This document shows positions 1 to 12,310 of a DNA stretch of 34,960 nucleotides, one piece after another. The DNA is taken from UHGV virus genome UHGV-0140617; one strand, 5' to 3'. A program made the position numbers and the translations under genes. Every line of letters starts with the position of its first letter. The stretch's first letter is position 1. This DNA comes from a virus. The notes under the pieces are model-generated. The model did not search any database. It had not been told where the DNA came from and saw nothing but the letters and a program-made list of their open reading frames with translations.

Positions 1-2224
1 CCCAGTTCAGGCGAATCCCCCAGTTGATCGGCGTTGTCGCAAAGCCGACAGGTTTCGGCGGATTTCCCACTTTACCCGTAAGATTTACTTCTGATGATGT
101 CGCCCATACTGATGAAACGTCGCTGGCGTTCACCGCCCTGACACGGACCAGATAGCGACCCGAGTAGATACCCTGCACTTCAAAGCCGAGAGAAGACGTT
201 CGGGGCACACTAATCCAGTTGCCGCTGTCACGCCGCCATTCCGCCTCGTAAGCAACTGCACCCTGAACAGAATCCCAGGCAACGCGCATAGTGGTAATCG
301 CAATGTTCTGGTTAACCGTAGAGTAACTGTCTACGACAATATTTCCTGGGGGAGCCTGAACCCCCGGTGGAATGACACTGACTGGCCGCTCGTCCAGTCT
401 TGCGCCGGTATCAACAGCGGAATAGATATCAGGGTTGTAAGTCGTCCCGGTGACCTCGAAAGTACCGTCGTTGTTGTCCCGCGTTCCCGTAACACGGAAA
501 AGCGCTATAAACAGATCGTCAGAGTCCACACCCCAGTTACATTCAGCCTCCGGCGTTTCGCTGTAGGGTGTGGTGACAGTGACTGTGTTTCCGTTAACGG
601 CCTGGACGGTTCTGGCCTGAGCTGTGCCTGACGGAAGATTCAAAAACAGCCTGTTACCGGCTTTCACATCAGCAGCGCGATCGAGGGTTATGTTGCGGCC
701 GTTAACCGCACTCACCCTGCCGCCGATAGTTCTTCCGGCCAGCTCGTTAGCAGCCACGCCGATCACCTCACCAACAGGGGGGACGTCCATGCCTGTGCTG
801 AAGGTCACCACCTCGCCGATACCGTTGGTAAGCAGCGCCCAGCGCCCCCGCCGGTTTGCCTCTGACTGCCTGGTGCAGCCGATCGCAGTCATTTCGAGCT
901 GACGATAATCGAAGCGCATGGCCAGATCGCTATCGTAAACAGGCTCAGGCGTATCTTTGTAGTGGTTGGCAGGGTCTGACCAGTTCACCAGCGCGGCAGT
1001 GTTTCGGGTGGTTTCACTCGGGTCCGCAAAGGTAAATTTTCCTTCAACAACGCTGGCGTGGTTGTAGATGTGCCACACATCCCGGGGCATATCGGCCAGG
1101 ACATACATCTTATTGTCGCCCCAGTACGTCATGCCGCGAAATATACCCGCCAGATCACGAAGTACGGTCCAGGCGTCATTACGGTCCTGGATATAAACGT
1201 TGCAACGAAAACGAGGCTCCGTCCCGCTGCCGCCCTTGCCGTCTGGTACCAGTTGATCGCAATACTGGGCGATGCGATAAAGTTCCCATTTGTCTATCTG
1301 AGTCGCATCGATTCTTTGACCCAGCCCGAAGCGCTCGTTCAGGATGATGTCGTAATATATCCAGGCTGGATTATCCGTCCATGCCCATTTAAATACGCCC
1401 TCCCATGTACCAGAGTAAGTACGGGTTTCAGGATCATACGTGTCAGGTACACGGATGATTCGCCCTTTCGGATTGCACACAACCTGAGGAATGCCATTGG
1501 GGAACTGCTTTGCGTCAAACTCTACATACAGCAGAGCTGTGTTAACGTAGCGAAGTTTGGCGTCAATAATTTCAGTAACGGCCACAACGCGCATGATGTC
1601 CACGACATTCACGCTCGTGGAATCCGGCGTGATTCTGCGAACCCGCAACTGCCATCCAGTCGAGGCTTTTGGAAGATTGACGCGGTGGCTGCGCTCATAA
1701 AGCGACGTGGTTTTGTCATCAACAGCACCGTTAATCACCGTTTCATACGGCCCACCATCGACCGACAGATCGATAGCATACTCAACGCGGGTGCCGACTT
1801 TATCGCCGTTGTTTTTCTGGAGTAAAAGAGTTGGCCATCCCAGGCGAATTCGCAGCGCAGAGAGCTGCGTGTTGGATACCGCGCGAACGTACGGCACGGC
1901 CTGTTTCAGCTCGTATGAAACCTGAATCTCGTTTTCAATGCCGGGGAAGCCCTGAATGTAGTCCTGGTCCTGAGTACCGGAACGGAACTCATATTTTACA
2001 TTATTGAAGTTATAACTTCCGTTGGCGTTCTGAAGGGGCGTATATGAAGATGAGTCACCAAGAAAAATGTTTTTACCATCAAGTCCGCCAGCGAACTCAC
2101 CCTCTCCAAGAGCAATCAGCACCTTTGCCCTCGCAATGGACTGAATGCTGTCCGGTGCTTCCACGGGCGTTCTGGTCTGATTGCTGCCACCTTTACCGCG
2201 GCCTTTGATGATTGTCGTCGTCAT
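1..2224 (-). CDS. J: Host specificity / central tail fiber protein J (partial; N-terminal ~740 aa, C-terminus lies beyond window start)
   Basis: Minus-strand frame open from ATG at 2222-2224 (MTTTIIKGRGKGGSNQ...) to the window edge; motif CDQLVPDGKGGSGTEPRFRCNVY resembles lambda J (CDQSVPDGFGGTEPRITCNAY); sits downstream of I/K/L/M as in lambda. Plus-strand ORFs here are antisense shadows. Confidence 0.85.
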   Translation of the reverse strand, partial: MTTTIIKGRGKGGSNQTRTPVEAPDSIQSIARAKVLIALGEGEFAGGLDGKNIFLGDSSSYTPLQNANGSYNFNNVKYEFRSGTQDQDYIQGFPGIENEIQVSYELKQAVPYVRAVSNTQLSALRIRLGWPTLLLQKNNGDKVGTRVEYAIDLSVDGGPYETVINGAVDDKTTSLYERSHRVNLPKASTGWQLRVRRITPDSTSVNVVDIMRVVAVTEIIDAKLRYVNTALLYVEFDAKQFPNGIPQVVCNPKGRIIRVPDTYDPETRTYSGTWEGVFKWAWTDNPAWIYYDIILNERFGLGQRIDATQIDKWELYRIAQYCDQLVPDGKGGSGTEPRFRCNVYIQDRNDAWTVLRDLAGIFRGMTYWGDNKMYVLADMPRDVWHIYNHASVVEGKFTFADPSETTRNTAALVNWSDPANHYKDTPEPVYDSDLAMRFDYRQLEMTAIGCTRQSEANRRGRWALLTNGIGEVVTFSTGMDVPPVGEVIGVAANELAGRTIGGRVSAVNGRNITLDRAADVKAGNRLFLNLPSGTAQARTVQAVNGNTVTVTTPYSETPEAECNWGVDSDDLFIALFRVTGTRDNNDGTFEVTGTTYNPDIYSAVDTGARLDERPVSVIPPGVQAPPGNIVVDSYSTVNQNIAITTMRVAWDSVQGAVAYEAEWRRDSGNWISVPRTSSLGFEVQGIYSGRYLVRVRAVNASDVSSVWATSSEVNLTGKVGNPPKPVGFATTPINWGIRLNW

Positions 2225-2235
2225 ATCGCGTCCAT

Positions 2236-2258
2236 AAAAAAAGCCACCGTCAGGTGGC
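2236..2258 (-). terminator. Hairpin plus U-tract between I and J (terminator-like on minus strand)
   Basis: Plus-strand A7 run 2236-2242 then gccac(2243-2247)/gtggc(2254-2258) stem; on the minus strand this is a hairpin followed by UUUUUUU. Confidence 0.4.
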
Positions 2259-2277
2259 TTATAGTACGTGGTTTGGT

Positions 2278-2865
2278 TTATTGCTGATCTTCTGCATAAA
2301 TCCCGGCTGAGATAATCGCACCGCCTATTTCCCTCTGTCCGTAAAGCAAAGGAACGGGGTTACCGGATGCCGTAGTATTGACGGGTCCGCCAAACGCATA
2401 GGAAGGCTTATTATCTGGGTCCTGTCGCATCCTCAGACCAGCAACCTGAGGGGAAAGCATTTGCACTACACCACCCACAGCCATAGAACCAGCTGCGGCA
2501 TATAGCGCCATTTGTGTACCTGCTGCCCATCCTATTGGGTTCCACCAGGTAAAAGCCGCAATTGCGGCGGCAGTAACAATTTGAAAGAGGCCAGCCCTTT
2601 TACTGCCGCGTATTACAGGGATAATGCGAAGTTCATCGCCAGGTCCAAGAAGATCAAACTCTTCCTTTCCTATGTTTATTTGGTTTCGGAAGATGACAAA
2701 ATCCAGCCCTTTCGCTCTGGTCTCGCGCAGGTAAGCATCAAAGCCATCAATGGTGTTAGAAAGCGCCCTGAACACTTCGCTGGCAGACGTTAGTGCGCGG
2801 CGATGCGTCCTGCCAAATCGCTGAGCCATTGAGCCGCTGAGTTTGATAACGGTTTTTCTTTCCAT
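2278..2865 (-). CDS. I: Tail assembly protein I
   Basis: 195 aa, hydrophobic Gly/Ala-rich C-terminal half like lambda gpI; 1-nt overlap with K stop; positioned between K and J. Confidence 0.8.
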   Translation of the reverse strand: MERKTVIKLSGSMAQRFGRTHRRALTSASEVFRALSNTIDGFDAYLRETRAKGLDFVIFRNQINIGKEEFDLLGPGDELRIIPVIRGSKRAGLFQIVTAAAIAAFTWWNPIGWAAGTQMALYAAAGSMAVGGVVQMLSPQVAGLRMRQDPDNKPSYAFGGPVNTTASGNPVPLLYGQREIGGAIISAGIYAEDQQ

Positions 2866-3575
2866 TACATCAAATCCTTATAACGCAGAATTTTGATGGT
2901 ACGGTCACGGTAATAACCACCGTAGGGAATACGCTGGCTTAGCTGGCCATACATGTGATGCAGTAGCATGTTGCCATCAAGCAAAATCCCGGCATGGTTC
3001 GGGACGGTGGACTGTACCTGCATGATAACCATGTCACCGGGCTGAGCTGGACCGTCGTACTCACGGAAACCGCATTCCTGCCAGTTGTCCATATAGAGGT
3101 TTTCACCCTGCTCCCACCAGTGCCGATCTACGCTGTAGTTGGGCAGTTCAATGCCGTGTTCGATGCGGAAATAGTCCATAATGAGAGACCAGCAGTCTGC
3201 ATGCCCGAGTACAAACTGGCGCCCTGTGAGGGGACGGTCTCCGCGAGGCATGACGGTGCGAATGTCGCCCTCAGGCCACGATGCAATAATCCAGGGCAGT
3301 TCCGTGGCATCACACATCAGCATGTCGAGTTCACTCGGCTGGGTTGTTGCCCCGTCGCCGGGGTGACTGTGGACGATCGCCACCACAGTTCCCTGCTCTT
3401 CGGCGGCCGCATAATCCTCAGGATTGAGTTCAAATTGCTCAGTCGGCGACTCAGCATTATTTTTGCAGGGGATGTATTTCTCCACCCGCCCCTTCTGAAT
3501 AACCACGCCACAGCACTCCTCGGGGAAGGATGCGGCGGCATGCGCCAGAATGGCGCTAACTGTTTTGTCGCGCAT
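2865..3575 (-). CDS. K: Tail assembly protein K (JAB/MPN plus NlpC/P60-like)
   Basis: 236 aa; HSHP metal-binding motif (AIVHSHPGD) and Cys/His peptidase-like C-terminal region typical of lambda gpK; gene order L-K-I. Confidence 0.8.
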   Translation of the reverse strand: MRDKTVSAILAHAAASFPEECCGVVIQKGRVEKYIPCKNNAESPTEQFELNPEDYAAAEEQGTVVAIVHSHPGDGATTQPSELDMLMCDATELPWIIASWPEGDIRTVMPRGDRPLTGRQFVLGHADCWSLIMDYFRIEHGIELPNYSVDRHWWEQGENLYMDNWQECGFREYDGPAQPGDMVIMQVQSTVPNHAGILLDGNMLLHHMYGQLSQRIPYGGYYRDRTIKILRYKDLM

Positions 3576-3577
3576 GA

Positions 3578-4336
3578 TTATCCTCTCAGAAGTGAAGCGC
3601 CGGGGAACCCGCCATAATCCAGCTGTTCATTCTCTCCGAAGCGAGGTTTACAGCCCGTTGACAGCAATCCGGAGCAAACATCCTGTGAAGGATCGTCCAC
3701 CCGATTGCCGTCTTTATCGAACCAGCCGTTTTGCCCGGCGTAGGTGCAGCCGTTCCCGGTTTTGTACCAGCCACGCATGCACCACGTGCACATTGGCTGA
3801 ATTTGCCGGGTCGGAATGAGTTGCCCGCGCAGATCGGCTGGACTGGAAAGCTCAAATTCTACAGTTTCATCGTCTGATCCTGATTTACGGTCGATGTAAT
3901 AAACCTGTTTGCGCTCCTCGTTGGGATTCGCAGTCTGGTTCCCATCAGGGAAGTTTCTGGCGTCCAGATAGTGTGCGAAGGTGTCATGGATGATCACCTT
4001 TGCTTTAGCCATCCCCTGAAATCTTCGGCACAGCGCGCCAATCGTGCCGCTGATGTTTGCAACGGTGAGAGACGGTCGTGAACACTGGCCGTCACTGCTG
4101 ACAGATATGCCGGTCAGTTCATACGGCCACGCGCCATACTCCTGCCCCTGCCACCACACCGACTTCGGCTCAAGTTTTGACTCGTCGCCGCCTGCGGCGA
4201 TGATTTCCGCCTCGGTATGCGGGATTGTCTCGTTGTGAAAGCGAAGAATACCTGCACCGAAAGCTGAGCCGTCCACCTCGATCAGGCGGACGCGCTTACC
4301 CGGCTCCAGTTTCTGGACATCAGATGAAATACTCAT
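3578..4336 (-). CDS. L: Minor tail protein L
   Basis: Start taken at internal ATG 4334-4336 (MSISSDVQKLEPGKRVRLIEVDG...), giving lambda gpL-like length; C-terminal Cys cluster (CTWCMRGW...C...C) as in lambda L; ATGA overlap with M stop. Confidence 0.8.
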   Translation of the reverse strand: MSISSDVQKLEPGKRVRLIEVDGSAFGAGILRFHNETIPHTEAEIIAAGGDESKLEPKSVWWQGQEYGAWPYELTGISVSSDGQCSRPSLTVANISGTIGALCRRFQGMAKAKVIIHDTFAHYLDARNFPDGNQTANPNEERKQVYYIDRKSGSDDETVEFELSSPADLRGQLIPTRQIQPMCTWCMRGWYKTGNGCTYAGQNGWFDKDGNRVDDPSQDVCSGLLSTGCKPRFGENEQLDYGGFPGASLLRG

Positions 4337-4671
4337 GGGTGGTATGCCTGTGTGAATGTGCTGCTGAGGGTGTATTTTTTGTTGCCGTGTGTAGATATCT
4401 GAAAGGATTCCGCGCGCCATAAGCCTGATGGCTCAAGCGGCGACTTCCAGATAAATGATTTCCACCCGGCATGTCTGTTGAGAAAGTTTTTAATGGCCTG
4501 AATGTAAGCCTCATCGCCGGTAAAACTCACGCTCCATTGAGATGTTACCGGGTTGATACCATCCCCTGCCACCTGCGTATAGCCATCGCCAAACTGTGCC
4601 TTTCGGGTACGAAAATTTGTATCAACCTGAGAGGCAACCTTTGGGCACCAGCTGAAGGTTTCTACTGTCAT
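4333..4671 (-). CDS. M: Minor tail protein M
   Basis: Start at ATG 4669-4671 (MTVETFSWCPKV...); FGDGYTQ and GWKSF motifs match lambda gpM (FGDGYSQ, GGWKSF); 2 nt after tape measure stop. Confidence 0.8.
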   Translation of the reverse strand: MTVETFSWCPKVASQVDTNFRTRKAQFGDGYTQVAGDGINPVTSQWSVSFTGDEAYIQAIKNFLNRHAGWKSFIWKSPLEPSGLWRAESFQISTHGNKKYTLSSTFTQAYHP

Positions 4672-4673
4672 GG

Positions 4674-7600
4674 TTAAACTCCCTTGATTAATCGCCACAG
4701 AGGCGAGCCCGGCATGCTGGCCTGTTCGTTAATGACGCCAGTGATGGCATCCTTAAGCTGCCTGCCTGCTGCTCCAGCAGTACCCTGACTGGCCGCCTGG
4801 GATGATCCGCCCTGAATATTGATATCGCCGAAGTTAACTGAAGGCATACCACCGGAGACCTGAGGAGTGCCAACAGCCCGAACGCCAAGCGAACCATCAG
4901 CGGCGCGCGTAAGCGGCATAATGGCTTCCGGACCAGCTTCGGCAAAAACCCCTGCACCTTTGGCAAAAGCAAACAGCTGAGGCGTCTGAAAAACGCCATT
5001 GCTGTAAGCGCTCAGGGACGGAGAGTCGTAAACATTACCCTTCGCATTAAAGGTAAAGTTCGCGCCAGCATTCTGAATAGCGGTACCGCTGCTGGCGGTA
5101 GCGGCTGACGAGGCACCAAAACTGAACAGTGAACCAATTGAGCTAACGCCATTAGCAACAGCCATATTCACCAGAACGTTCTGGATAATCTTCAGTACGC
5201 TGACGCCCCAGTCCTTCCAGCTATCAACGTTGCCATTGAGCATGTCGGTGATCGTGGTGACCGCGCCACCCATAGCCTGCTTCATGCCGTCAGCGGCCAT
5301 GGAAGAATAATCAGTAGCTTCGTCCACCCAGTTCGCATAACCCTCAGACAGTCCCGTCATCCAGTCGTCACGCTGCGCATCAGAAGCTGCGTAATATCCC
5401 TCCTGGTCGCGCAGGCGCTCATCGAGATAGCGCTTATTAAGTGCCAGTCCCTGCTGATAGAACGTCTCATCGATTTCACCAGCCTGACGCTGGCGGAGAA
5501 GATCGGTATTCTTCTGCTCGAACTCCTTACGCAGATTGAACTGCTCCTGAAGTCTTTCACGGAACCTGGTACCCTGCCCGTAACCCAGCAGTTGCCCTTC
5601 ATTAGCTGCTCGGGCGCTGGCGTTACTGTCGGCGAGGTTGGCTTCGTAATTTCGCAGTTGCTCACGTAATTTAACCTGGTCAATCAGCGCAGCATTCTGC
5701 AATAACGTCTTTTTCTGGGCTTCTGTCAGAGAAGCAAGCTCGCCCTGGCTGACCTGGTATTTAACCTTCGCCAGTTCAGTATTCTGGCCTTGCAGGGCAA
5801 TCTGCTCTTTTTGCTGTTTGATCAGCTTGTCATAGGCATCAGCTGTTTTTTCCGCCTCGGATTTCCCGCCCTTATGGCGGCTTGAGTCACGAATAGCTTG
5901 CAACTGCCTGGCTGACTCAACTTCCATGCTGACATACTTCTCACGCCAACCAGCAGGGAGATTAAGGTCAGATGCATCGAATTCCGCCTGCTTGCGGGTT
6001 TTGTCCAATCCCTTAAGACCGGACAACTCAAGCTGTCGCTGCGCCTTGTCTATAGCTTGCTGCTGCTTATTATCAAGTGCAGGAAGTACAGGCCCTGCAT
6101 ATTTTGGTGGGGACACTGCTGTAGACTGTCTGGAAACCTTGTTCAGACGGTCATACATCTCTGTAAGAGAACTTACGGCGCCAGCCATTTCTACTGTTTT
6201 ATTTATAGCCTGATCAGTTATGTCGTTTATTAACTGTTGTGTTTGCTTTCTTTTATTGAGCATTTGCTCAAGTCGGCCTTCTTCAACCGCAAGTTCTGAA
6301 GCAAACTCTGCTGATTTCTCAACCGCATCGTTATACAGCCATGTTCCATCTGAAGCAGAATTGGCTGCTAATTTTGCGTTATAAAGTTGATTGGATAATT
6401 CAGCAACTTTCTGCTTCTGCTGTTCAATCGCACTATTTTGAGCATCCAGTGAAATATTCGCCTGTCCAAGGTTGGCGGATATCTGCGTCTGAGACATTGA
6501 TTTCAGATTATCTCGTACCTGCTCGATTGTGTCCGCATATTGGATTGCAGATTCCCTGGCTTGTTCTTGGCGTTGATACATCGTGTACCACGCCCCAGCA
6601 CCCAACATTAAAATTCCTGGCAAACCACCAACTAACGACAAAAGCCCCGTAGCGCCAGACTTGAATAAATTCATTACCGATGTTGATCGGTTGAGTGCTT
6701 CTTGCGACGCTGATACTGCTTTATTTGACTGAACGAGAGTGGAATTGGCGGCTATCATTTCACGCCGTTTGGCAATAGAATTTTGTGTAGCTGTCGCTTC
6801 TGCATTTGTGTTTTTTGCAAGTTCCAACTCGGATAGCGAGAGCTGATAAGCACGCTCGGCAGCAATCGCATCTGCTGCCGCCTTTCGTTGTGATTGGGTA
6901 GCAGATTCAGCCCTTGCAGATGCGAGCGCAATTTCGTTCTTTCTGGCATCTATTAATTGCGCCGTTTGGTTCCCAAGATCGCCAAACATCCCTCCAAGAT
7001 AGCGAGCTCCACCTATTGCAGCCAAAGCTCCGGCAGCCGTAGCCACAGTGTCGATATTGTCAGAAACTGTATTCAATACAGCAACAAGAGCACTTGTCGC
7101 ACCAGTAGCTTCATTAGCTCCACCTACCCATGCCATGAAAGCATTTTCGACTTTCGTCGTGGCAGCAGAAACGGTCTGCGGCATTGCCTCAAATTCACCA
7201 CGCATAGTGCCAAGTTGACTTATCAGGGCCGGGACAACTTTATCTGCGGTTAGCATCCCCTGATCGGCCATTGCCTTCAGATCTTTACGAGCTACACCCA
7301 TCCCAGCGGCCAGCGCACGGATAACTCGATCACCGTTTTCGTTAACAGAGTTGAATTCCTCGCCCCGCAGAACGCCCTGAGCTAATGCCTGACTAAACTG
7401 GGTGATAACAGAACTTGCCTCTGCCGTGCTGGCGCCGGATAGCTTTAGTCCAGTAGAAATGGCCTCGGTTACATCCAGAACTTGCTGCGAACTGTATCCG
7501 TATTCACGCATTGATGCGGCGGAACGCGCAAAAAGACTCGCATTATCAGAGAAGGCGGTTCCGGTTCGTTGGCTAATATCCATCAGCGCCCGCTGAGACT

Positions 7601-7928
7601 CCGTGAAATCATCAGACGATTGGGAAGCCTGCTTTAGCCTGGCATTAACAGAGCTCCATTCATCGGCCAGCGATATAAGATGACCAGTCGCAAATGCTCC
7701 AGCAAATGCACCTGCCATTCCCAGCGCTGAGGCCTTCGCGGTGTTTATTTGACTAGTTACCTCAGCTAAGGCACGCTGAGTTTCACGCGAAGCTGCGGCC
7801 GCTTGGCGTCCTCCAGTCTGCATTACCCGGTAATAGTCATTCCCCATTCTTGAAGCACGAGAAATTTCAGACTGAAATGACTGAGAGTTTGCAGATATTT
7901 TGATGATCAGTTCGCGCAACGTAGCCAT
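4674..7928 (-). CDS. H: Tail tape measure protein
   Basis: About 1084 aa, Ala/Gln-rich coiled-coil-like sequence, position between chaperones and M. Start placed at second ATG (7926-7928, MATLREL) because GGGTGA precedes it, whereas the first ATG (7938-7940) directly abuts a U-tract. Confidence 0.85.
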   Translation of the reverse strand: MATLRELIIKISANSQSFQSEISRASRMGNDYYRVMQTGGRQAAAASRETQRALAEVTSQINTAKASALGMAGAFAGAFATGHLISLADEWSSVNARLKQASQSSDDFTESQRALMDISQRTGTAFSDNASLFARSAASMREYGYSSQQVLDVTEAISTGLKLSGASTAEASSVITQFSQALAQGVLRGEEFNSVNENGDRVIRALAAGMGVARKDLKAMADQGMLTADKVVPALISQLGTMRGEFEAMPQTVSAATTKVENAFMAWVGGANEATGATSALVAVLNTVSDNIDTVATAAGALAAIGGARYLGGMFGDLGNQTAQLIDARKNEIALASARAESATQSQRKAAADAIAAERAYQLSLSELELAKNTNAEATATQNSIAKRREMIAANSTLVQSNKAVSASQEALNRSTSVMNLFKSGATGLLSLVGGLPGILMLGAGAWYTMYQRQEQARESAIQYADTIEQVRDNLKSMSQTQISANLGQANISLDAQNSAIEQQKQKVAELSNQLYNAKLAANSASDGTWLYNDAVEKSAEFASELAVEEGRLEQMLNKRKQTQQLINDITDQAINKTVEMAGAVSSLTEMYDRLNKVSRQSTAVSPPKYAGPVLPALDNKQQQAIDKAQRQLELSGLKGLDKTRKQAEFDASDLNLPAGWREKYVSMEVESARQLQAIRDSSRHKGGKSEAEKTADAYDKLIKQQKEQIALQGQNTELAKVKYQVSQGELASLTEAQKKTLLQNAALIDQVKLREQLRNYEANLADSNASARAANEGQLLGYGQGTRFRERLQEQFNLRKEFEQKNTDLLRQRQAGEIDETFYQQGLALNKRYLDERLRDQEGYYAASDAQRDDWMTGLSEGYANWVDEATDYSSMAADGMKQAMGGAVTTITDMLNGNVDSWKDWGVSVLKIIQNVLVNMAVANGVSSIGSLFSFGASSAATASSGTAIQNAGANFTFNAKGNVYDSPSLSAYSNGVFQTPQLFAFAKGAGVFAEAGPEAIMPLTRAADGSLGVRAVGTPQVSGGMPSVNFGDINIQGGSSQAASQGTAGAAGRQLKDAITGVINEQASMPGSPLWRLIKGV

Positions 7929-7940
7929 ATTTTCACCCAT

Positions 7941-7964
7941 AAAAAAAACCCGCTTGATAGCGGG
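7941..7964 (-). terminator. Intrinsic terminator-like hairpin directly upstream of tape measure start
   Basis: Plus-strand A8 (7941-7948) then cccgc(7949-7953)/gcggg(7960-7964); minus-strand RNA gives hairpin plus UUUUUUUU. Confidence 0.5.
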
Positions 7965-7971
7965 TCGTGAG

Positions 7972-8160
7972 TTATAAACTGTCTTTTCTTTTGTGAGCGA
8001 CTTGTATTAATAAATCTATTTGCGCATCTTGTTTTTTATTTATCTCTTTAAGGGCTTCAACTTGTTCATTTGCCCTTGTGCTAAACCGTATTAAATAAAA
8101 AATCACAATTAGATTTATCAACCAGCCGAATATTCCAAACACTACTACCAGTGGTTCCAT
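7972..8160 (-). CDS. Small single-pass membrane protein (moron) between T and tape measure
   Basis: 62 aa from ATG 8158-8160 (MEPLVVVFGIFGWLINLIVIFYLIRF... then charged helical tail); strong SD AAGGAGG 5 nt upstream; AT-rich relative to flanks; followed by terminator 7941-7964. Confidence 0.6.
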   Translation of the reverse strand: MEPLVVVFGIFGWLINLIVIFYLIRFSTRANEQVEALKEINKKQDAQIDLLIQVAHKRKDSL

Positions 8161-8217
8161 AACGCCTCCTTTTCTTAAGGAAAGAGCGTATCGCCACATT
8201 GATGACATGTGAAGCAA

Positions 8218-8888
8218 TTATTGTGTCGCAGCTGTAAGAGCAGCCTCAAGCCCTGCAAACGGGTCCTTCGGTGCTGATTGCTCATCACCACCCCAGCGCA
8301 GGATCGCATCGTCCAGCGGTACTTTTGCCCCCTGCGAGCCGTAGATGGCAGAGACGAGCTGGGCTGCCTGAATGTCACCACGGATATCGCCAACCGGACT
8401 TTGCCTGTCGTACTCAATCCACATCAGAAGCTCGCTTGCCGTCATATTCTGCCGAAGCTCTGAGAGCGTGCGCCCCATCCGGAGCGCAAGCGACATCAGA
8501 AACTTTACGCCGGGGGTTGAGACTTTTCCCGCGCTTCGTCCGCATTGTTGATCAGGTCAAGCGCCTGTTTGAGCAGGCGTGAATGGACGGGGCCGTAGAT
8601 TTCACGCACCTGCTCTTCTTCGTCTACGCTGAATACCGGCTGCTTATCGGTGTCACACAGAACGTCAATGAAGAGCACCACGTCAGCGCAAAGATTACGG
8701 TGTGCCTTTTCCGATACCGACACATTTTCATCATCAGTACCCGCTTTCACCACCTCCTGCCAGCGCAGCCAGGCTTCACCTGACGGCTCACGCAGAACCA
8801 CTTTGACGCCCTCCCACTCAGGAACGGCGACCGTCTTATGACGAAATCCCGACATCTTAGCCAGGGCGAGATTTTTAATATTCTTCAT
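8218..8888 (-). CDS. GT: Tail assembly chaperone GT fusion (predicted -1 programmed frameshift product)
   Basis: ORF 8218..8496 (MSLALRMGRTLSEL...) is in the -1 frame relative to G and open back through the G 3' end; slippery-like run CGGGAAAAG (sense) at 8523-8530, about 20 nt before the G stop. Confidence 0.55.
8505..8888 (-). CDS. G: Tail assembly chaperone G
   Basis: 127 aa acidic protein between major tail protein and tape measure; downstream T-frame ORF lies in the -1 frame. Confidence 0.7.
   Translation of the reverse strand: MKNIKNLALAKMSGFRHKTVAVPEWEGVKVVLREPSGEAWLRWQEVVKAGTDDENVSVSEKAHRNLCADVVLFIDVLCDTDKQPVFSVDEEEQVREIYGPVHSRLLKQALDLINNADEAREKSQPPA
8523..8530 (-). other. Candidate -1 frameshift slippery site (GGGAAAAG) for G to GT
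   Basis: Sense sequence GCG CGG GAA AAG TCT in the G frame; the -1 frame (GGA AAA) is open into the T ORF. Confidence 0.4.
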
Positions 8889-8896
8889 GCGACCTC

Positions 8897-9340
8897 TCAG
8901 GAGCCAGACTCGATGTTTTCAGGCTTACCTTTCAGGCGCAGGGAGAACGTTGCCGCAACTACGCCGTTGGTACCGGAAGACCAGGTGTGCTGGCGGATTT
9001 CAGCCAGGAACTTAAAGCCCTTGCCGGACGGGAAGATAACCTGGAAAGCGTAGGTCGTATCGTTGTCATACGCTTCACGCAAGGCGTCCTGCGCCGGGTT
9101 TTTGTAGAAGTTGCCGGACAGAGAGATTTCTGACGGAGAAGGCAGGCCGTTGATGTTCTCCTGCTCGGTAGAGCAAAGCGTGGTTACGTCGATATCCTGC
9201 TTCTGGCCACCAGTGAACTGAATTTCTTTGATGGTGCAACTCAGATCGAGGAAGGTTGCGGTATCCATCGTTTCTTTGGTGGCTGGCGCAGAGGAAATAA
9301 GGATCTTCGTCAGCTGCGATTTTTCATAAAGTGCAGACAT
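8897..9340 (-). CDS. V: Major tail (tube) protein
   Basis: 147 aa, position immediately upstream of chaperones; SD AGGAGA before ATG 9338-9340. Confidence 0.7.
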   Translation of the reverse strand: MSALYEKSQLTKILISSAPATKETMDTATFLDLSCTIKEIQFTGGQKQDIDVTTLCSTEQENINGLPSPSEISLSGNFYKNPAQDALREAYDNDTTYAFQVIFPSGKGFKFLAEIRQHTWSSGTNGVVAATFSLRLKGKPENIESGS

Positions 9341-9354
9341 AGCTGTCTCCTGGT

Positions 9355-9379
9355 AAAAGAAAACCCGCCATTAAGCGGG
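9355..9379 (-). terminator. Terminator-like hairpin between tail-terminator gene and major tail gene
   Basis: cccgc(9364-9368)/gcggg(9375-9379) with minus-strand UUUUCUUUU (plus 9355-9363). Confidence 0.4.
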
Positions 9380-9399
9380 TTCGTTGGGTGAATGATTTA

Positions 9400-9747
9400 T
9401 CAAGGTGTAACTTTAAAATCCAGGGTGGCACGGTATAGCCGATAATATGGCTCGTATCCGGGGATTTTTACCACCTCTGTAGGGTTTAACGACTTAAGCG
9501 AAGCAAGCGCCAAATCTCTCAGAGATCGTGATTCAGTGATCGTTGTGGCATACACATCGACCTGAACGGAAACCCTGCTCTCTGCCTGGCCACACATCAC
9601 GTCAGCGGAAACATCATCGACGATGGAAAAGATAATCCAGGGTGGAGTGACCGACGGTTTCCCGTCACTACCTAATGGCGCAACATAGGGATATACCCGT
9701 CCTTCTGCCAGGGGAGAAAGCAAGGCGTAGATATTATCTTCATTCAC
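9400..9747 (-). CDS. Putative tail terminator / tail completion protein
   Basis: 115 aa; GTG start 9745-9747 overlapping the upstream stop (GTGA); position between head-tail joining genes and major tail gene. Confidence 0.5.
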   Translation of the reverse strand: MNEDNIYALLSPLAEGRVYPYVAPLGSDGKPSVTPPWIIFSIVDDVSADVMCGQAESRVSVQVDVYATTITESRSLRDLALASLKSLNPTEVVKIPGYEPYYRLYRATLDFKVTP

Positions 9748-10193
9748 TTGCTCAATACCTCATCAATAGCCTGACTCATCCTGGCAATGGCGACGCTGGC
9801 GGCCTCTTCCTCGCGCGTATCGTAAGCGGGTCGCACAAACGGATGTGCAGGCATGTTCGCGGTGCCCATTTCTACGAATCGCCAGTAAAAGGCGTTTCTC
9901 GGGTTATTCGCCTTCATCGTGTTATCGCTGTTGCCGGTGCGCGGGTTAACGCCACGAATATGGACGCCGGAAGAAATTTCCCCGCGGCGACGGCTTTTTT
10001 GGGTCACCACCACCACGTTTTTTTTCAGTTTCCCGGTGCGCACCGGTGCACGGGCGATCACTTCTTCCTTAAGCACTTCGGCGCCGGCGCGCGTGGCATC
10101 ACGCAGAACCTTGTTGTTTTCAGCGCGGCTAAGCGCCTCCAGGTCTTTTGCTATGTCATTTAACCCAGAAAAATCGAGGCTCGTCTCAATCAT
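9744..10193 (-). CDS. HK97 gp10-family head-tail joining protein
   Basis: Motif WRFVEMGT...HPFVRPA typical of that family; start at ATG 10191-10193 overlapping the upstream stop (ATGA). Confidence 0.65.
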   Translation of the reverse strand: MIETSLDFSGLNDIAKDLEALSRAENNKVLRDATRAGAEVLKEEVIARAPVRTGKLKKNVVVVTQKSRRRGEISSGVHIRGVNPRTGNSDNTMKANNPRNAFYWRFVEMGTANMPAHPFVRPAYDTREEEAASVAIARMSQAIDEVLSK

Positions 10194-10534
10194 TTTTCGG
10201 TCCCCTGTTTGCAAAGAATTTCAAGCTGGGTCCCTTTAGGGTCAGGTATGGGCGGCCCTACCACATTCAACGTTTGGCCCTTATATGGACCAGAGAGCAC
10301 CTTCAACCTGGAGGTAGCATAAATACTCGATCCGCTTTTAAATCTCACCCATACCCTTATTGTTGCTTCAGCATGCTCAGCACCAGATGCCATCATTTCC
10401 CGCCCGCTTCTTCCTTTCACTTCAGCAGAGATGGTTTTCCCATCTTCCCATTTTTCAACCGGCTGGCCGGAAGGCGTTCTGGAGGTTGTGAAGTTCTGAA
10501 TGGTGACCCTGTGCCGTAATCGTCCTGCCTGCAT
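10190..10534 (-). CDS. Head closure / head-tail adaptor protein (SPP1 gp16-like)
   Basis: 114 aa starting MQAGRLRHRVTIQ..., characteristic of head-tail adaptor proteins; strong SD AGGAGGTGAT. Confidence 0.7.
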   Translation of the reverse strand: MQAGRLRHRVTIQNFTTSRTPSGQPVEKWEDGKTISAEVKGRSGREMMASGAEHAEATIRVWVRFKSGSSIYATSRLKVLSGPYKGQTLNVVGPPIPDPKGTQLEILCKQGTEK

Positions 10535-11101: not shown

Positions 11102-12310
11102 TTATGCGCCAGCACCGATCTGCAGCAGTTTGATGGCCTGAGAATCGGCCAGCATTCCGCCTGTACGTTTGGTGGTGTAGAAACCAACGAATGGTTTGTT
11201 GGTGTACGGGTCGCGGAGGATGCGGGTACCAATGCGATCAACGATGGTATAGCCGCGTTTAAAGTTACCGAACGCAATGGCTTTCGCATCAGCAGCGATA
11301 TCCGGCATTTGCTCATTCTCAGCAACGCCATAACCCGCCAGAGAGGAAGGCTGGCCCAGCTCAAGGCCCGGACGCCAGAGATAGTTACCCTCTGAGTCCT
11401 TCAGAATGCGAACCGCAAACAGACTGTTGTTGTTCATCATGAACTTAGCGCCGTTGCGGTGCACCTTGCGCAGGGTGTAGACCAGCTTGATAATCGCATC
11501 GGCCGTCACACCCGCCGCCGCACCGGAAAGAATGTGCTGCAGGGTGCCAAAAGCACGGGTTTTATCGTCATCCAGAGAAGAGGCATAGGCCAGAAAGCCT
11601 TTCGGTTTTTTCGTACCGTTGCCGCTGGTGAAAGCGATTTCTTCCTGTTCGGAGAACTCAACCGCCAGTTCGCTGTTGATCCAGTCCTCTACATTGAAGA
11701 AGGCATCATCCAGCATCGTTTGGGTTGCCTGAGGGTTTCCGTAGATTTCACCCATGAACGGTTCAATCTGACCGAGTTTAGATGCAGCAGTCTCAGGGCG
11801 GGCATCAGTTTCACCAACCCAGCCGGAAGCCGTACCGCCGAGATTAACCAGTTTTTTATAGTTAGCGCCGCCGACTGTGATGGTTGTCGCCTCCTGGCGC
11901 ATCACCACTTCATCTTTCAGAAGATTAAGGATCGTTCGATCCAGTTCTTCCGGCACGGCATAGCCACCATCTTCATCCACACCGACCTGCAGAGCTTTGC
12001 GTTCAAGTTCGCGCAGCCCGTCATCTTTACCCTTACGCATAAAGCCAATGAAAGCGGTTTTATGTTCGCTTGCGGCTTTGCTCTGAGGACCACCGGCTGG
12101 ACGTTTAACCTGCTTCAGTTCCTCTTCCAGCGCAGATTTAAGCTCATCCAGTTCAGACAACTTGCCGTTTAAGGTTTCAACCTCCCCCGCTAACTTGCCC
12201 TTTTCCTGTTCAACTGCTTCCAGGCGCTTATCGTTCTTTTCTTTGAACGCATCAAACTTCGCCTGCAGTTCCTGCGCGACCTGCTCTACGTCTTTAACGT
12301 CAACTGACAT
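11102..12310 (-). CDS. Major capsid protein, HK97 family (with N-terminal delta/scaffold domain)
   Basis: About 402 aa from ATG 12308-12310 (MSVDVKDV...); N-terminal coiled-coil delta domain then HK97-fold body; SD AGGAG; follows the prohead protease. Confidence 0.9.
   Translation of the reverse strand: MSVDVKDVEQVAQELQAKFDAFKEKNDKRLEAVEQEKGKLAGEVETLNGKLSELDELKSALEEELKQVKRPAGGPQSKAASEHKTAFIGFMRKGKDDGLRELERKALQVGVDEDGGYAVPEELDRTILNLLKDEVVMRQEATTITVGGANYKKLVNLGGTASGWVGETDARPETAASKLGQIEPFMGEIYGNPQATQTMLDDAFFNVEDWINSELAVEFSEQEEIAFTSGNGTKKPKGFLAYASSLDDDKTRAFGTLQHILSGAAAGVTADAIIKLVYTLRKVHRNGAKFMMNNNSLFAVRILKDSEGNYLWRPGLELGQPSSLAGYGVAENEQMPDIAADAKAIAFGNFKRGYTIVDRIGTRILRDPYTNKPFVGFYTTKRTGGMLADSQAIKLLQIGAGA

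What the first reader, a model, noticed from the sequence alone, without database searches (positions are those of the whole stretch)
8218..8888. Predicted -1 programmed frameshift producing a GT chaperone fusion
The T-like ORF is in the -1 frame relative to the G-like chaperone and open across the G 3' end. A GGGAAAAG run lies about 20 nt before the G stop. This differs slightly from the canonical lambda heptamer G GGA AAG, so the exact slip site and its efficiency are uncertain.
Basis: partly seen in the sequence, partly recalled or inferred. Interest (0 to 1): 0.4.

Follow-up and report, generated by a model that had tools for sequence, protein, structure and literature searches.

The report
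HK97-type tail chaperone G/GT frameshift
This is the already annotated -1 ribosomal frameshift of phage HK97 tail-assembly genes 13/14, sitting in an HK97-like prophage, so it is real but ordinary.

Summary
On the minus strand, a 127-aa tail assembly chaperone gene (8888..8505, Pfam Phage_TAC_1) is overlapped by a -1 frame ORF. That ORF carries a lambda-T-type domain (Pfam Phage_tail_T) and ends at 8218. The pair lies between the major tail gene and the tape measure gene.

The GGGAAAAG run is at 8530..8523. In the G reading frame it reads CGG|GAA|AAG, so the in-phase slip site is G_GAA_AAG (8529..8523), not lambda's G_GGA_AAG.

The locus is 93.5% identical to phage HK97. It is 100% identical to HK97 for about 180 nt around the slip site. 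The HK97 records already annotate gp14 as "translated due to a -1 frameshift", and the deposited protein has the junction ...AREK|VSTPGV, which places the shift on GAA_AAG.

In 12 annotated phage lineages and 79 further viral contigs, T is always in the -1 frame. An in-phase A_AAG (A_AAA in one lineage) always sits at the same spot, while the codon before it varies (GAA, GGA, AAA, GCA). No significant stimulatory RNA structure was found.

It is already known and of low interest. Efficiency and the actual protein product cannot be shown with these tools.

The parts
8505..8888 (-). G-like tail assembly chaperone gene (HK97 gp13 ortholog), 127 aa. It has a GAGAGG Shine-Dalgarno-like sequence 5 nt before the ATG at 8888, and its stop TAA is at 8507..8505.
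   Evidence: ORF list. Pfam PF06222 Phage_TAC_1, E 2.5e-59. 92.9% aa identity to HK97 gp13. The exact protein is found in Enterobacter and Citrobacter genomes, named 'phage tail assembly chaperone'. Upstream sequence read.
8523..8529 (-). In-phase slip heptamer G_GAA_AAG. The 0 frame reads GAA AAG and the -1 frame reads GGA AAA.
   Evidence: Phasing. Identical in HK97. The HK97 gp14 junction EK|V was confirmed by exact look-up. An A_AAG sits at the homologous position in all relatives. Invariant in 78 close relatives.
8218..8523 (-). T-frame (-1) part of the predicted GT fusion. Base 8523 is read twice. The fusion is complement(join(8218..8523,8523..8888)), 223 aa, with junction ...NNADEAREK|VSTPGVKFLMSLALR...
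   Evidence: Translation. Pfam PF06223 Phage_tail_T, E 1.3e-19. phrog_14766 positions 122-224. The predicted fusion is 95% identical to deposited HK97 gp14, P0031.
8494..8496 (-). Internal ATG, used by automated genome annotation as the start of a separate 92-aa 'tail assembly protein T / DUF4035'. Here it is read as an internal Met of the conserved F-L-M-x-L-A-L-R motif.
   Evidence: No Shine-Dalgarno-like sequence in the 25 nt upstream. The -1 frame peptide upstream of this Met is conserved (V-x-x-P-G-x-x-F-L-M), and KS9 has Leu at this position. The separate 92-aa annotation was seen.
8897..9340 (-). Major tail tube protein gene, directly upstream of G (context).
   Evidence: Pfam Phage_TTP_11 and Phage_tail_3; phrog_158 major tail protein.
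4674..7940 (-). Tape measure protein gene, downstream of T (context).
   Evidence: Pfam TMP_3, Phage_HK97_TLTM and Tape_meas_lam_C.

Best explanation
Two proteins are made from one start codon at 8888. Most ribosomes read gene G to its stop at 8507..8505 and make the 127-aa chaperone. A minority slip back one base on G_GAA_AAG (8529..8523). The A-site tRNA-Lys re-pairs from AAG to the cognate AAA. The P-site tRNA-Glu re-pairs from GAA to GGA, with two Watson-Crick pairs and a G.U at the middle position. These ribosomes continue in the -1 frame to 8218 and make a 223-aa G-T fusion with junction ...AREK|VSTPGV....

By analogy with lambda gpG/gpGT, the G part of both proteins coats the tape measure protein and the T part recruits the major tail protein. 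A low fixed GT:G ratio is set by the slip frequency, and neither protein ends up in the virion.

Shown here: the gene order, the frames, the family membership of both halves, identity to the annotated HK97 13/14 frameshift, and conservation of the in-phase A_AAG. Inferred: the tRNA re-pairing details, the efficiency (probably a few per cent), and the assembly role.
For: (1) G hits Pfam Phage_TAC_1 and the -1 ORF hits Phage_tail_T, both far above the curated cut-offs. Both halves tile a single fused-protein PHROG profile.

(2) The region is 93.5% identical to HK97, with no differences for about 180 nt spanning the slip site. HK97 gp14 is annotated as a two-piece CDS 'translated due to a -1 frameshift'. 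Of seven possible junctions, only ...AREK|VSTPGV... exists as a deposited protein (AAF31104.1 / NP_037707.1).

(3) In 12 annotated lineages with 27-100% identity in G, T is always in the -1 frame. An in-phase N_NNA_AAG always lies at the same alignment position (A_AAA_AAA in KS9). The heptamers are G_GAA_AAG (window, HK97, ENT39118), G_GGA_AAG (FSL SP-016, mEp390), A_AAA_AAG (Evi, BP-4795, Pm34, Bcep176, phiE125) and A_GCA_AAG (Klebsiella phage 1 LV-2017). The same holds in 79 further IMG/VR loci.

(4) In Evi, FSL SP-016, the Klebsiella phage, L129/L130, L158 and L165 the -1 frame opens only 7 nt before the G stop. The shift can then only happen on that heptamer.

(5) The -1 frame peptide between the slip site and the internal Met is conserved and of constant length (V-x-x-P-G-x-x-F-L-M), while the 0-frame tail of G varies from 0 to 11 codons.

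(6) In 78 close relatives, nt 345-408 of the G-T unit has only 2 singleton variable sites. The rest of G has about one variable site per 6 nt.

(7) There is no Shine-Dalgarno sequence before the T ATG.

(8) Literature. A_AAG is the most shift-prone tetramer in E. coli (PMC4066793). Two prophage genes of a tail-chaperone cluster similar to an HK97 protein gave 6-7% frameshifting in reporters (PMC3711429). The lambda G/GT mechanism and its 30:1 ratio are described in PMC5009743.
Against: The heptamer is not of the canonical X_XXY_YYZ form, because the P-site re-pairing GAA to GGA is only near-cognate.

The heptamer is not unique. The same in-phase G_GAA_AAG occurs at G codons 60-61, where a slip would end after 4 codons, and in the capsid gene. 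The motif alone therefore cannot be strongly slippery.

No stimulatory RNA structure was found. The 93 nt downstream fold no better than shuffles (z = -0.12). The family consensus fold is only -3.1 kcal/mol, a hairpin starting about 35 nt downstream. According to PMC4066793, tetramers without a stimulator are barely above background.

No protein-level data for this locus can be obtained with these tools. I could not read the paper that reports experiments on such frameshifts (Xu et al. 2004, not held). The HK97 annotation may therefore rest on prediction.

An ATG lies 8 nt after the G stop, so some termination-reinitiation giving free T cannot be excluded.
Confidence: 0.88

Rival explanations
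1. T is made as a separate 92-aa protein from its own ATG at 8496, for example by termination-reinitiation after the G stop 8 nt upstream. No fusion is needed.
For: Automated annotation of bacterial genomes calls exactly this 92-aa ORF 'phage tail assembly protein T / DUF4035', in a cluster of 1041 members. The ATG is 8 nt downstream of the G stop. A Met is conserved at this position in most relatives.
Against: There is no Shine-Dalgarno sequence upstream. The nine -1 frame codons before the Met are conserved as protein and in length across lineages. The Met is a Leu in KS9. An in-phase A_AAG is always present at the same position, and in several relatives the -1 frame opens exactly at the heptamer. 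Fused-protein profiles and deposited fused proteins exist. In lambda the functional form is gpGT (PMC5009743).
Confidence: 0.06
2. The -1 shift happens elsewhere in the 49-nt overlap, for example on the C-run CAA_CCC_CCG (8519..8511) just before the G stop, rather than on G_GAA_AAG.
For: The -1 frame is open from 27 nt before the heptamer up to the G stop, so any shift in that window gives a full-length T domain. CCC_CCG offers partial re-pairing of tRNA-Pro, and C_CCG was 1.8-3.6 fold above background as a tetramer (PMC4066793).
Against: The C-run is absent in relatives whose G stop directly follows AAG (Evi, BP-4795, FSL SP-016, the Klebsiella group), yet those keep the A_AAG. Only the EK|V junction is deposited for HK97. 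A_AAG ranks far above C_CCG in E. coli.
Confidence: 0.04
3. The frame change is made at the RNA level. RNA polymerase slips on the A-run and adds or drops a base, so a subset of transcripts encode the fusion in one frame.
For: Some relatives carry long A-runs at the site (Evi has A8, BP-4795 has A6), where transcriptional slippage is conceivable.
Against: The window has only four A's, far below the runs of 8 or more A's cited for transcriptional realignment (PMC3711429). The G_GAA_AAG, G_GGA_AAG and N_GCA_AAG variants cannot support it, yet they keep the same architecture.
Confidence: 0.01

Closest known systems
Phage HK97 genes 13 and 14 (gp13 tail assembly chaperone; gp14 = gp13 extended by a -1 frameshift), GenBank AF069529 / NC_002167
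   Same: Same gene order: major tail gene, 13/14, the gp15 moron, a terminator, then the tape measure gene. The DNA is 93.5% identical over 1.5 kb and 100% identical around the slip site. The heptamer G_GAA_AAG, the 5-codon G tail and the junction EK|V are all the same. The predicted fusion is 95% identical to deposited gp14.
   Different: The N-terminal residues of G differ (MKNIKNLALAKMSG versus MSQTLKQLAMAKMAG), and there are a few substitutions in the T part. The adjacent major tail protein is 147 aa here versus 234 aa in HK97. The exact window proteins occur in Enterobacter and Citrobacter genomes rather than in E. coli phages.
Phage lambda G / G-T programmed -1 frameshift (Levin, Hendrix and Casjens 1993; Xu, Hendrix and Duda 2004, 2013, 2014, as cited in PMC5009743)
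   Same: Same position between the tail tube and tape measure genes. Same -1 direction, with the slip near the 3' end of G on ...A_AAG. The T domain belongs to the same Pfam family (Phage_tail_T, 'Minor tail protein T').
   Different: The heptamer is G_GAA_AAG instead of G_GGA_AAG, so the P-site re-pairing is near-cognate rather than a wobble at the third position. The G domain belongs to Pfam Phage_TAC_1 (the family this HK97 gp13 ortholog matches), not to lambda G's family; that last point is from my own knowledge of Pfam and was not tested here.
E. coli dnaX and IS-element -1 frameshift sites (A_AAA_AAG, or the A_AAG tetramer)
   Same: They use the same A-site event, tRNA-Lys moving from AAG to AAA, which is the most shift-prone A-site motif in E. 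coli (PMC4066793). Several relatives of this locus carry the full A_AAA_AAG.
   Different: dnaX and IS3/IS911 rely on an upstream Shine-Dalgarno-like sequence and/or a downstream hairpin or pseudoknot. No such stimulator was detected here.

Membership tests
Lambda-type G/GT tail assembly chaperone pair with programmed -1 frameshift | The pair lies between the major tail (tube) gene and the tape measure gene. | tested here: met
   Major tail gene 8897..9340, G 8505..8888, T to 8218, tape measure gene 4674..7940, all on the minus strand. A 62-aa moron gene is inserted between T and the tape measure gene, as in HK97.
Lambda-type G/GT tail assembly chaperone pair with programmed -1 frameshift | The downstream ORF overlaps the 3' end of the upstream ORF in the -1 frame. 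| tested here: met
   The -1 frame is open from 49 nt before the G stop and runs 95 codons beyond it. The same holds in all 12 annotated lineages and in 79 further loci.
Lambda-type G/GT tail assembly chaperone pair with programmed -1 frameshift | There is a slippery sequence, in phase with G, inside the overlap. | tested here: met
   G_GAA_AAG at 8529..8523. An in-phase A_AAG is conserved at the homologous site in all relatives (A_AAA in KS9).
Lambda-type G/GT tail assembly chaperone pair with programmed -1 frameshift | The downstream ORF has no translation start signals of its own. | tested here: inconclusive
   No Shine-Dalgarno sequence lies before the ATG at 8496, the -1 peptide upstream of it is conserved, and KS9 has Leu there. 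However, the ATG lies 8 nt after the G stop, so reinitiation cannot be excluded from sequence alone.
Lambda-type G/GT tail assembly chaperone pair with programmed -1 frameshift | Both a short protein and a frameshift-extended fusion are actually made, at a low fixed ratio. | not testable with these tools
   Only annotation and reporter data on related prophage genes (6-7%, PMC3711429) are available.
Pfam PF06222 Phage_TAC_1 (tail assembly chaperones; this HK97 gp13 ortholog matches it) | Score above the curated gathering cut-off over the full profile. | tested here: met
   199.1 bits against a cut-off of 25; profile positions 3-124 of 124.
Pfam PF06223 Phage_tail_T (lambda minor tail protein T) | Score above the curated gathering cut-off over the full profile. 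| tested here: met
   70.9 bits against a cut-off of 25.9; profile positions 1-72 of 73.
Canonical X_XXY_YYZ -1 slippery heptamer | The first three bases are identical, so the P-site tRNA re-pairs at its first two codon positions after the shift. | tested here: not met
   In phase the site is G_GAA_AAG, and the P-site codon changes from GAA to GGA, a G.U at the middle position. Only the A-site half (A_AAG) is canonical. The site works like a Z_ZZN tetramer with a partly helpful P-site codon.
Stimulated bacterial -1 frameshift site (dnaX / IS3 type) | A downstream hairpin or pseudoknot 5-9 nt after the heptamer, or an upstream Shine-Dalgarno-like element. | tested here: not met
   The downstream 93 nt have z = -0.12 against shuffles. 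The family consensus structure is -3.1 kcal/mol and consists only of a hairpin about 35 nt downstream with almost no covariation. No GGAGG-like element lies upstream (sequences).

The most novel reading that the evidence does not exclude
In this chaperone family the only fixed requirement is the A-site A_AAG. The freely varying preceding codon (GAA, GGA, AAA or GCA), and the presence or absence of an adjacent stop codon, would then act as an evolutionary dial that sets the G:GT ratio for each phage, without any RNA stimulator. The second in-phase G_GAA_AAG inside G (8712..8706) would be a tolerated or even used abortive slip site.
Probability: 0.15. Interest if true: 0.3.

Novelty: already known. 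Interest (0 to 1): 0.08.

Why it matters
There is little new here. The G/GT frameshift is a textbook feature of long-tailed phages, and this exact site is annotated in the HK97 reference genome.

The practical value lies in annotation. Automated pipelines call T as a separate 92-aa protein in hundreds of Enterobacter, Citrobacter and E. coli prophages. The joined CDS complement(join(8218..8523,8523..8888)) should be added.

There is also a minor point for frameshift prediction tools. In this family the conserved element is the A_AAG tetramer, not a canonical heptamer. Tools that require X_XXY_YYZ will therefore miss the G_GAA_AAG and N_GCA_AAG variants.

Tried and rejected
(1) Exact look-up of the window's own predicted fusion with two junctions: not in the protein collection. 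Only the HK97 version is present.

(2) I tried to read Xu et al. 2004 (Mol Cell 16:11) to learn whether HK97 was among the experimentally confirmed phages. The paper is not held. My recollection that it lists HK97 is therefore not used as evidence.

(3) A full-text search for the heptamer together with HK97 gave only irrelevant papers. A search of the supplements of PMC3711429 for the tested chaperone constructs found nothing, so the heptamer behind the 6-7% figure is unknown.

(4) Downstream RNA stimulator. The single-sequence fold is not better than shuffles, and the alignment fold is negligible. The hairpin GCGCUCC-GGAU-GGGGCGC, 35 nt downstream, is conserved in enteric relatives. However, it coincides with the conserved peptide A-L-R-M-G-R, lies too far from the slip site, and shows almost no covariation. 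I rejected it as a stimulator.

(5) The first scan of viral contigs with the window G protein returned only relatives 98-100% identical. These were useful for the invariance count but not for comparative phasing. A second scan with an alignment was needed.

(6) Transcriptional slippage and a shift on the C-run were considered and rated unlikely (see the rival explanations).

Full report
**What is in the sequence.** The region is coding on the minus strand.
- ORF 8888..8505 encodes a 127-aa protein. It is preceded by GAGAGG 5 nt before its ATG.
- A second frame, -1 relative to the first, is open from 49 nt upstream of the G stop (TAA, 8507..8505). It runs 95 codons further, to a stop at 8220..8218.
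- The coordinates and the description are therefore correct. The one correction concerns phase. The G frame reads ...GCG CGG GAA AAG TCT..., so the heptamer that a ribosome would see is G_GAA_AAG (8529..8523). The -1 frame there reads GGA AAA GTC.

**What the two ORFs are.**
- The upstream protein matches Pfam Phage_TAC_1 over the whole profile (E 2.5e-59).
- The -1 ORF matches Pfam Phage_tail_T, the lambda gpT family, over the whole profile (E 1.3e-19).
- In PHROGs both halves hit one 224-position family, phrog_14766. G covers positions 4-127 and T covers 122-224, which means the profile was built from fused proteins.
- Upstream lies a major tail tube gene (8897..9340). Downstream lies a 1088-aa tape measure gene (4674..7940) with TMP_3, HK97_TLTM and lambda C-terminal tape-measure domains.

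**Identity with a known case.**
- Megablast places the 1.5-kb region at 93-94% identity to phage HK97 and its relatives (HK75, HK106, HK446, HK544, HK633, mEp234, mEpX1). It is 96-98% identical to Enterobacter phage LAU1, Aeromonas phage AsXd-1 and Escherichia phage SaltyDalty.
- The pairwise alignment shows no difference for about 180 nt spanning the end of G, the slip site and the start of T.
- I built the seven fusion proteins that a -1 shift at each codon of the overlap would give for HK97 and looked them up by exact sequence. Only ...NNADEAREK|VSTPGVKFLM... exists (AAF31104.1 / NP_037707.1). The HK97 depositors therefore placed the shift on GAA_AAG.
- The window's predicted 223-aa fusion is 95% identical to that protein.
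- The window's own G and 92-aa T sequences occur in hundreds of Enterobacter and Citrobacter genome contigs. There T is annotated as a separate 'phage tail assembly protein T / DUF4035'.

**Is the slip site more than chance?**
- In one sequence, barely. In-phase A_AAG occurs at 22 of 4452 codons of the window's structural genes. The identical in-phase G_GAA_AAG occurs twice more: at G codons 60-61 (8712..8706), where a -1 shift would stop after 4 codons, and in the capsid gene (12206..12200).
- The comparative evidence is decisive. A tblastn search found 199 phage records with a G homolog. I read ten further lineages, down to 27% identity.
- In every one, T is in the -1 frame and an in-phase N_NNA_AAG lies at the same aligned position:
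  - G_GAA_AAG in the window, HK97 and Cronobacter phage ENT39118.
  - G_GGA_AAG in Salmonella phage FSL SP-016 and mEp390.
  - A_AAA_AAG in Evi, BP-4795, Vibrio phage Pm34, Bcep176 and phiE125.
  - A_AAA_AAA in KS9.
  - A_GCA_AAG in Klebsiella phage 1 LV-2017.
- In Evi, FSL SP-016 and the Klebsiella phage the -1 frame opens only 7 nt before the G stop. The shift can then occur only on that heptamer.
- A further 79 IMG/VR loci (56-100% identical to the ENT39118 protein) give the same picture: 34 with G_GAA_AAG, about 33 with N_GCA_AAG, about 11 with A_AAA_AAG and one with A_GAA_AAG.
- The invariant element is therefore the A-site A_AAG. The preceding codon is free.

**Evidence that the -1 frame is translated upstream of the internal ATG.**
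- The nine -1 frame codons between the slip site and the Met at 8496 are conserved as protein and in number. Examples are VSTPGVKFL-M, VALPGMRFL-M, VAQPGMRFL-M and VKMPGMQFL-M. By contrast, the 0-frame tail of G after the slip site varies from 0 to 11 codons.
- KS9 has Leu instead of that Met.
- No Shine-Dalgarno-like sequence precedes the ATG at 8496, unlike G and the neighbouring moron gene.
- In 78 close relatives (61 distinct sequences), nt 345-408 of the unit has two singleton variable sites. The rest of G has about one variable site per 6 nt. This is as expected for a dual-coding slip region. Mosaic recombination could also contribute.

**Mechanism.**
- The most likely event is a -1 shift with tRNA-Glu on GAA in the P site and tRNA-Lys on AAG in the A site.
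- After the shift, tRNA-Lys faces its cognate AAA. tRNA-Glu faces GGA, with G:C, G.U and A:U pairs.
- In E. coli, A_AAG is by far the most shift-prone tetramer. The best motifs are those that give cognate A-site re-pairing. Tetramers alone are barely above background and reach 5.6% only with a strong pseudoknot (PMC4066793).
- I found no stimulator. The 93 nt downstream fold no better than shuffles (z = -0.12). The family consensus fold is -3.1 kcal/mol, consisting only of a hairpin 35 nt downstream that coincides with the conserved A-L-R-M-G-R codons.
- A low efficiency fits the biology. Lambda needs roughly 30 G per GT (PMC5009743). Two prophage genes from a chaperone cluster similar to an HK97 protein gave 6-7% in reporters (PMC3711429), although I could not find which heptamer they carried.
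- The assembly role is inferred from lambda and was not tested here. In lambda, G binds the tape measure protein, T recruits the tube protein, and both leave the finished tail.

**Rivals.**
- Independent translation of T from the ATG at 8496, possibly by reinitiation 8 nt after the G stop, cannot be excluded from sequence. It is disfavoured by the points above.
- A shift on the C-run before the stop is disfavoured because relatives lack that run but keep A_AAG.
- Transcriptional slippage is implausible with four A's.

**Comparison and verdict.**
- This is an ortholog of HK97 genes 13/14 in an HK97-like prophage or phage of the Enterobacter/Citrobacter group.
- It works like lambda G/GT and shares lambda's T domain family. 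It differs from lambda in the G domain family and in the P-site codon of the heptamer.
- It fails the strict X_XXY_YYZ definition but meets the features of the G/GT arrangement that could be tested.
- The finding is correct, already known and of low interest. The useful outputs are the corrected phase and junction, complement(join(8218..8523,8523..8888)), and the observation that this family conserves only the A_AAG tetramer.

Noticed in passing
window 7972..8160 (-) and terminator-like hairpin 7966..7947 (-): A 62-aa single-pass membrane protein gene sits between T and the tape measure gene. It matches Pfam YebO-like (E 1e-9) and phrog_5031, and has a strong AAGGAGG ribosome-binding site. An intrinsic-terminator-like hairpin plus T-run follows it and abuts the tape measure ATG. 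It corresponds to HK97 gp15, annotated there as a 'moron product' with a putative terminator.
   Followed up: partly
window 8897..9340 (-): The major tail protein is only 147 aa here, against 234 aa for HK97 gp12. The megablast match to HK97 breaks into two pieces with about 290 nt extra in HK97. This suggests that a C-terminal decoration domain present in HK97 is absent here, as in phages LAU1, AsXd-1, SaltyDalty and FSL SP-016.
   Followed up: no
window 8712..8706 (-) and 12206..12200 (-): There are two further in-phase copies of the same heptamer G_GAA_AAG. One is inside G itself (codons 60-61), where the -1 frame stops after 4 codons. The other is in the major capsid gene (codons 49-50). 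Either the motif alone is only weakly slippery, or these are tolerated abortive sites.
   Followed up: partly
window 4645..4639 (-), in ORF 4333..4698: An in-phase canonical heptamer C_CCA_AAG lies near the start of the small gene just after the tape measure gene. This heptamer is reported as highly shift-prone in E. coli (PMC5009743). A -1 shift there would stop after 5 codons, so it looks like a chance or abortive site.
   Followed up: partly
window 8487..8470 (-): The hairpin GCGCUCC-GGAU-GGGGCGC lies 35 nt downstream of the slip site. Its stem bases are kept in most enteric relatives, including the non-preferred codons CTC (Leu) and GGG (Gly). It overlaps the conserved A-L-R-M-G-R peptide, shows almost no covariation, and is too far from the slip site for a classical stimulator.
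   Followed up: partly
loci L097, L101, L102, L105 and relatives (IMG/VR): In four ENT39118-like loci the -1 (T) frame ends after 51 codons, while the +1 frame runs on for 198 codons. This may be a truncated or rearranged T gene, or an assembly error.
   Followed up: no
window 1..10222 versus 10223 onward: The tail half of the window (about 42..10222) is 95% identical to Enterobacter phage LAU1 and Aeromonas phage AsXd-1. Identity to the HK97 group covers only 4866..10225. No phage record covers 80% of the first 25 kb, so the head genes have a different nearest relative. This is the usual lambdoid mosaicism.
   Followed up: no
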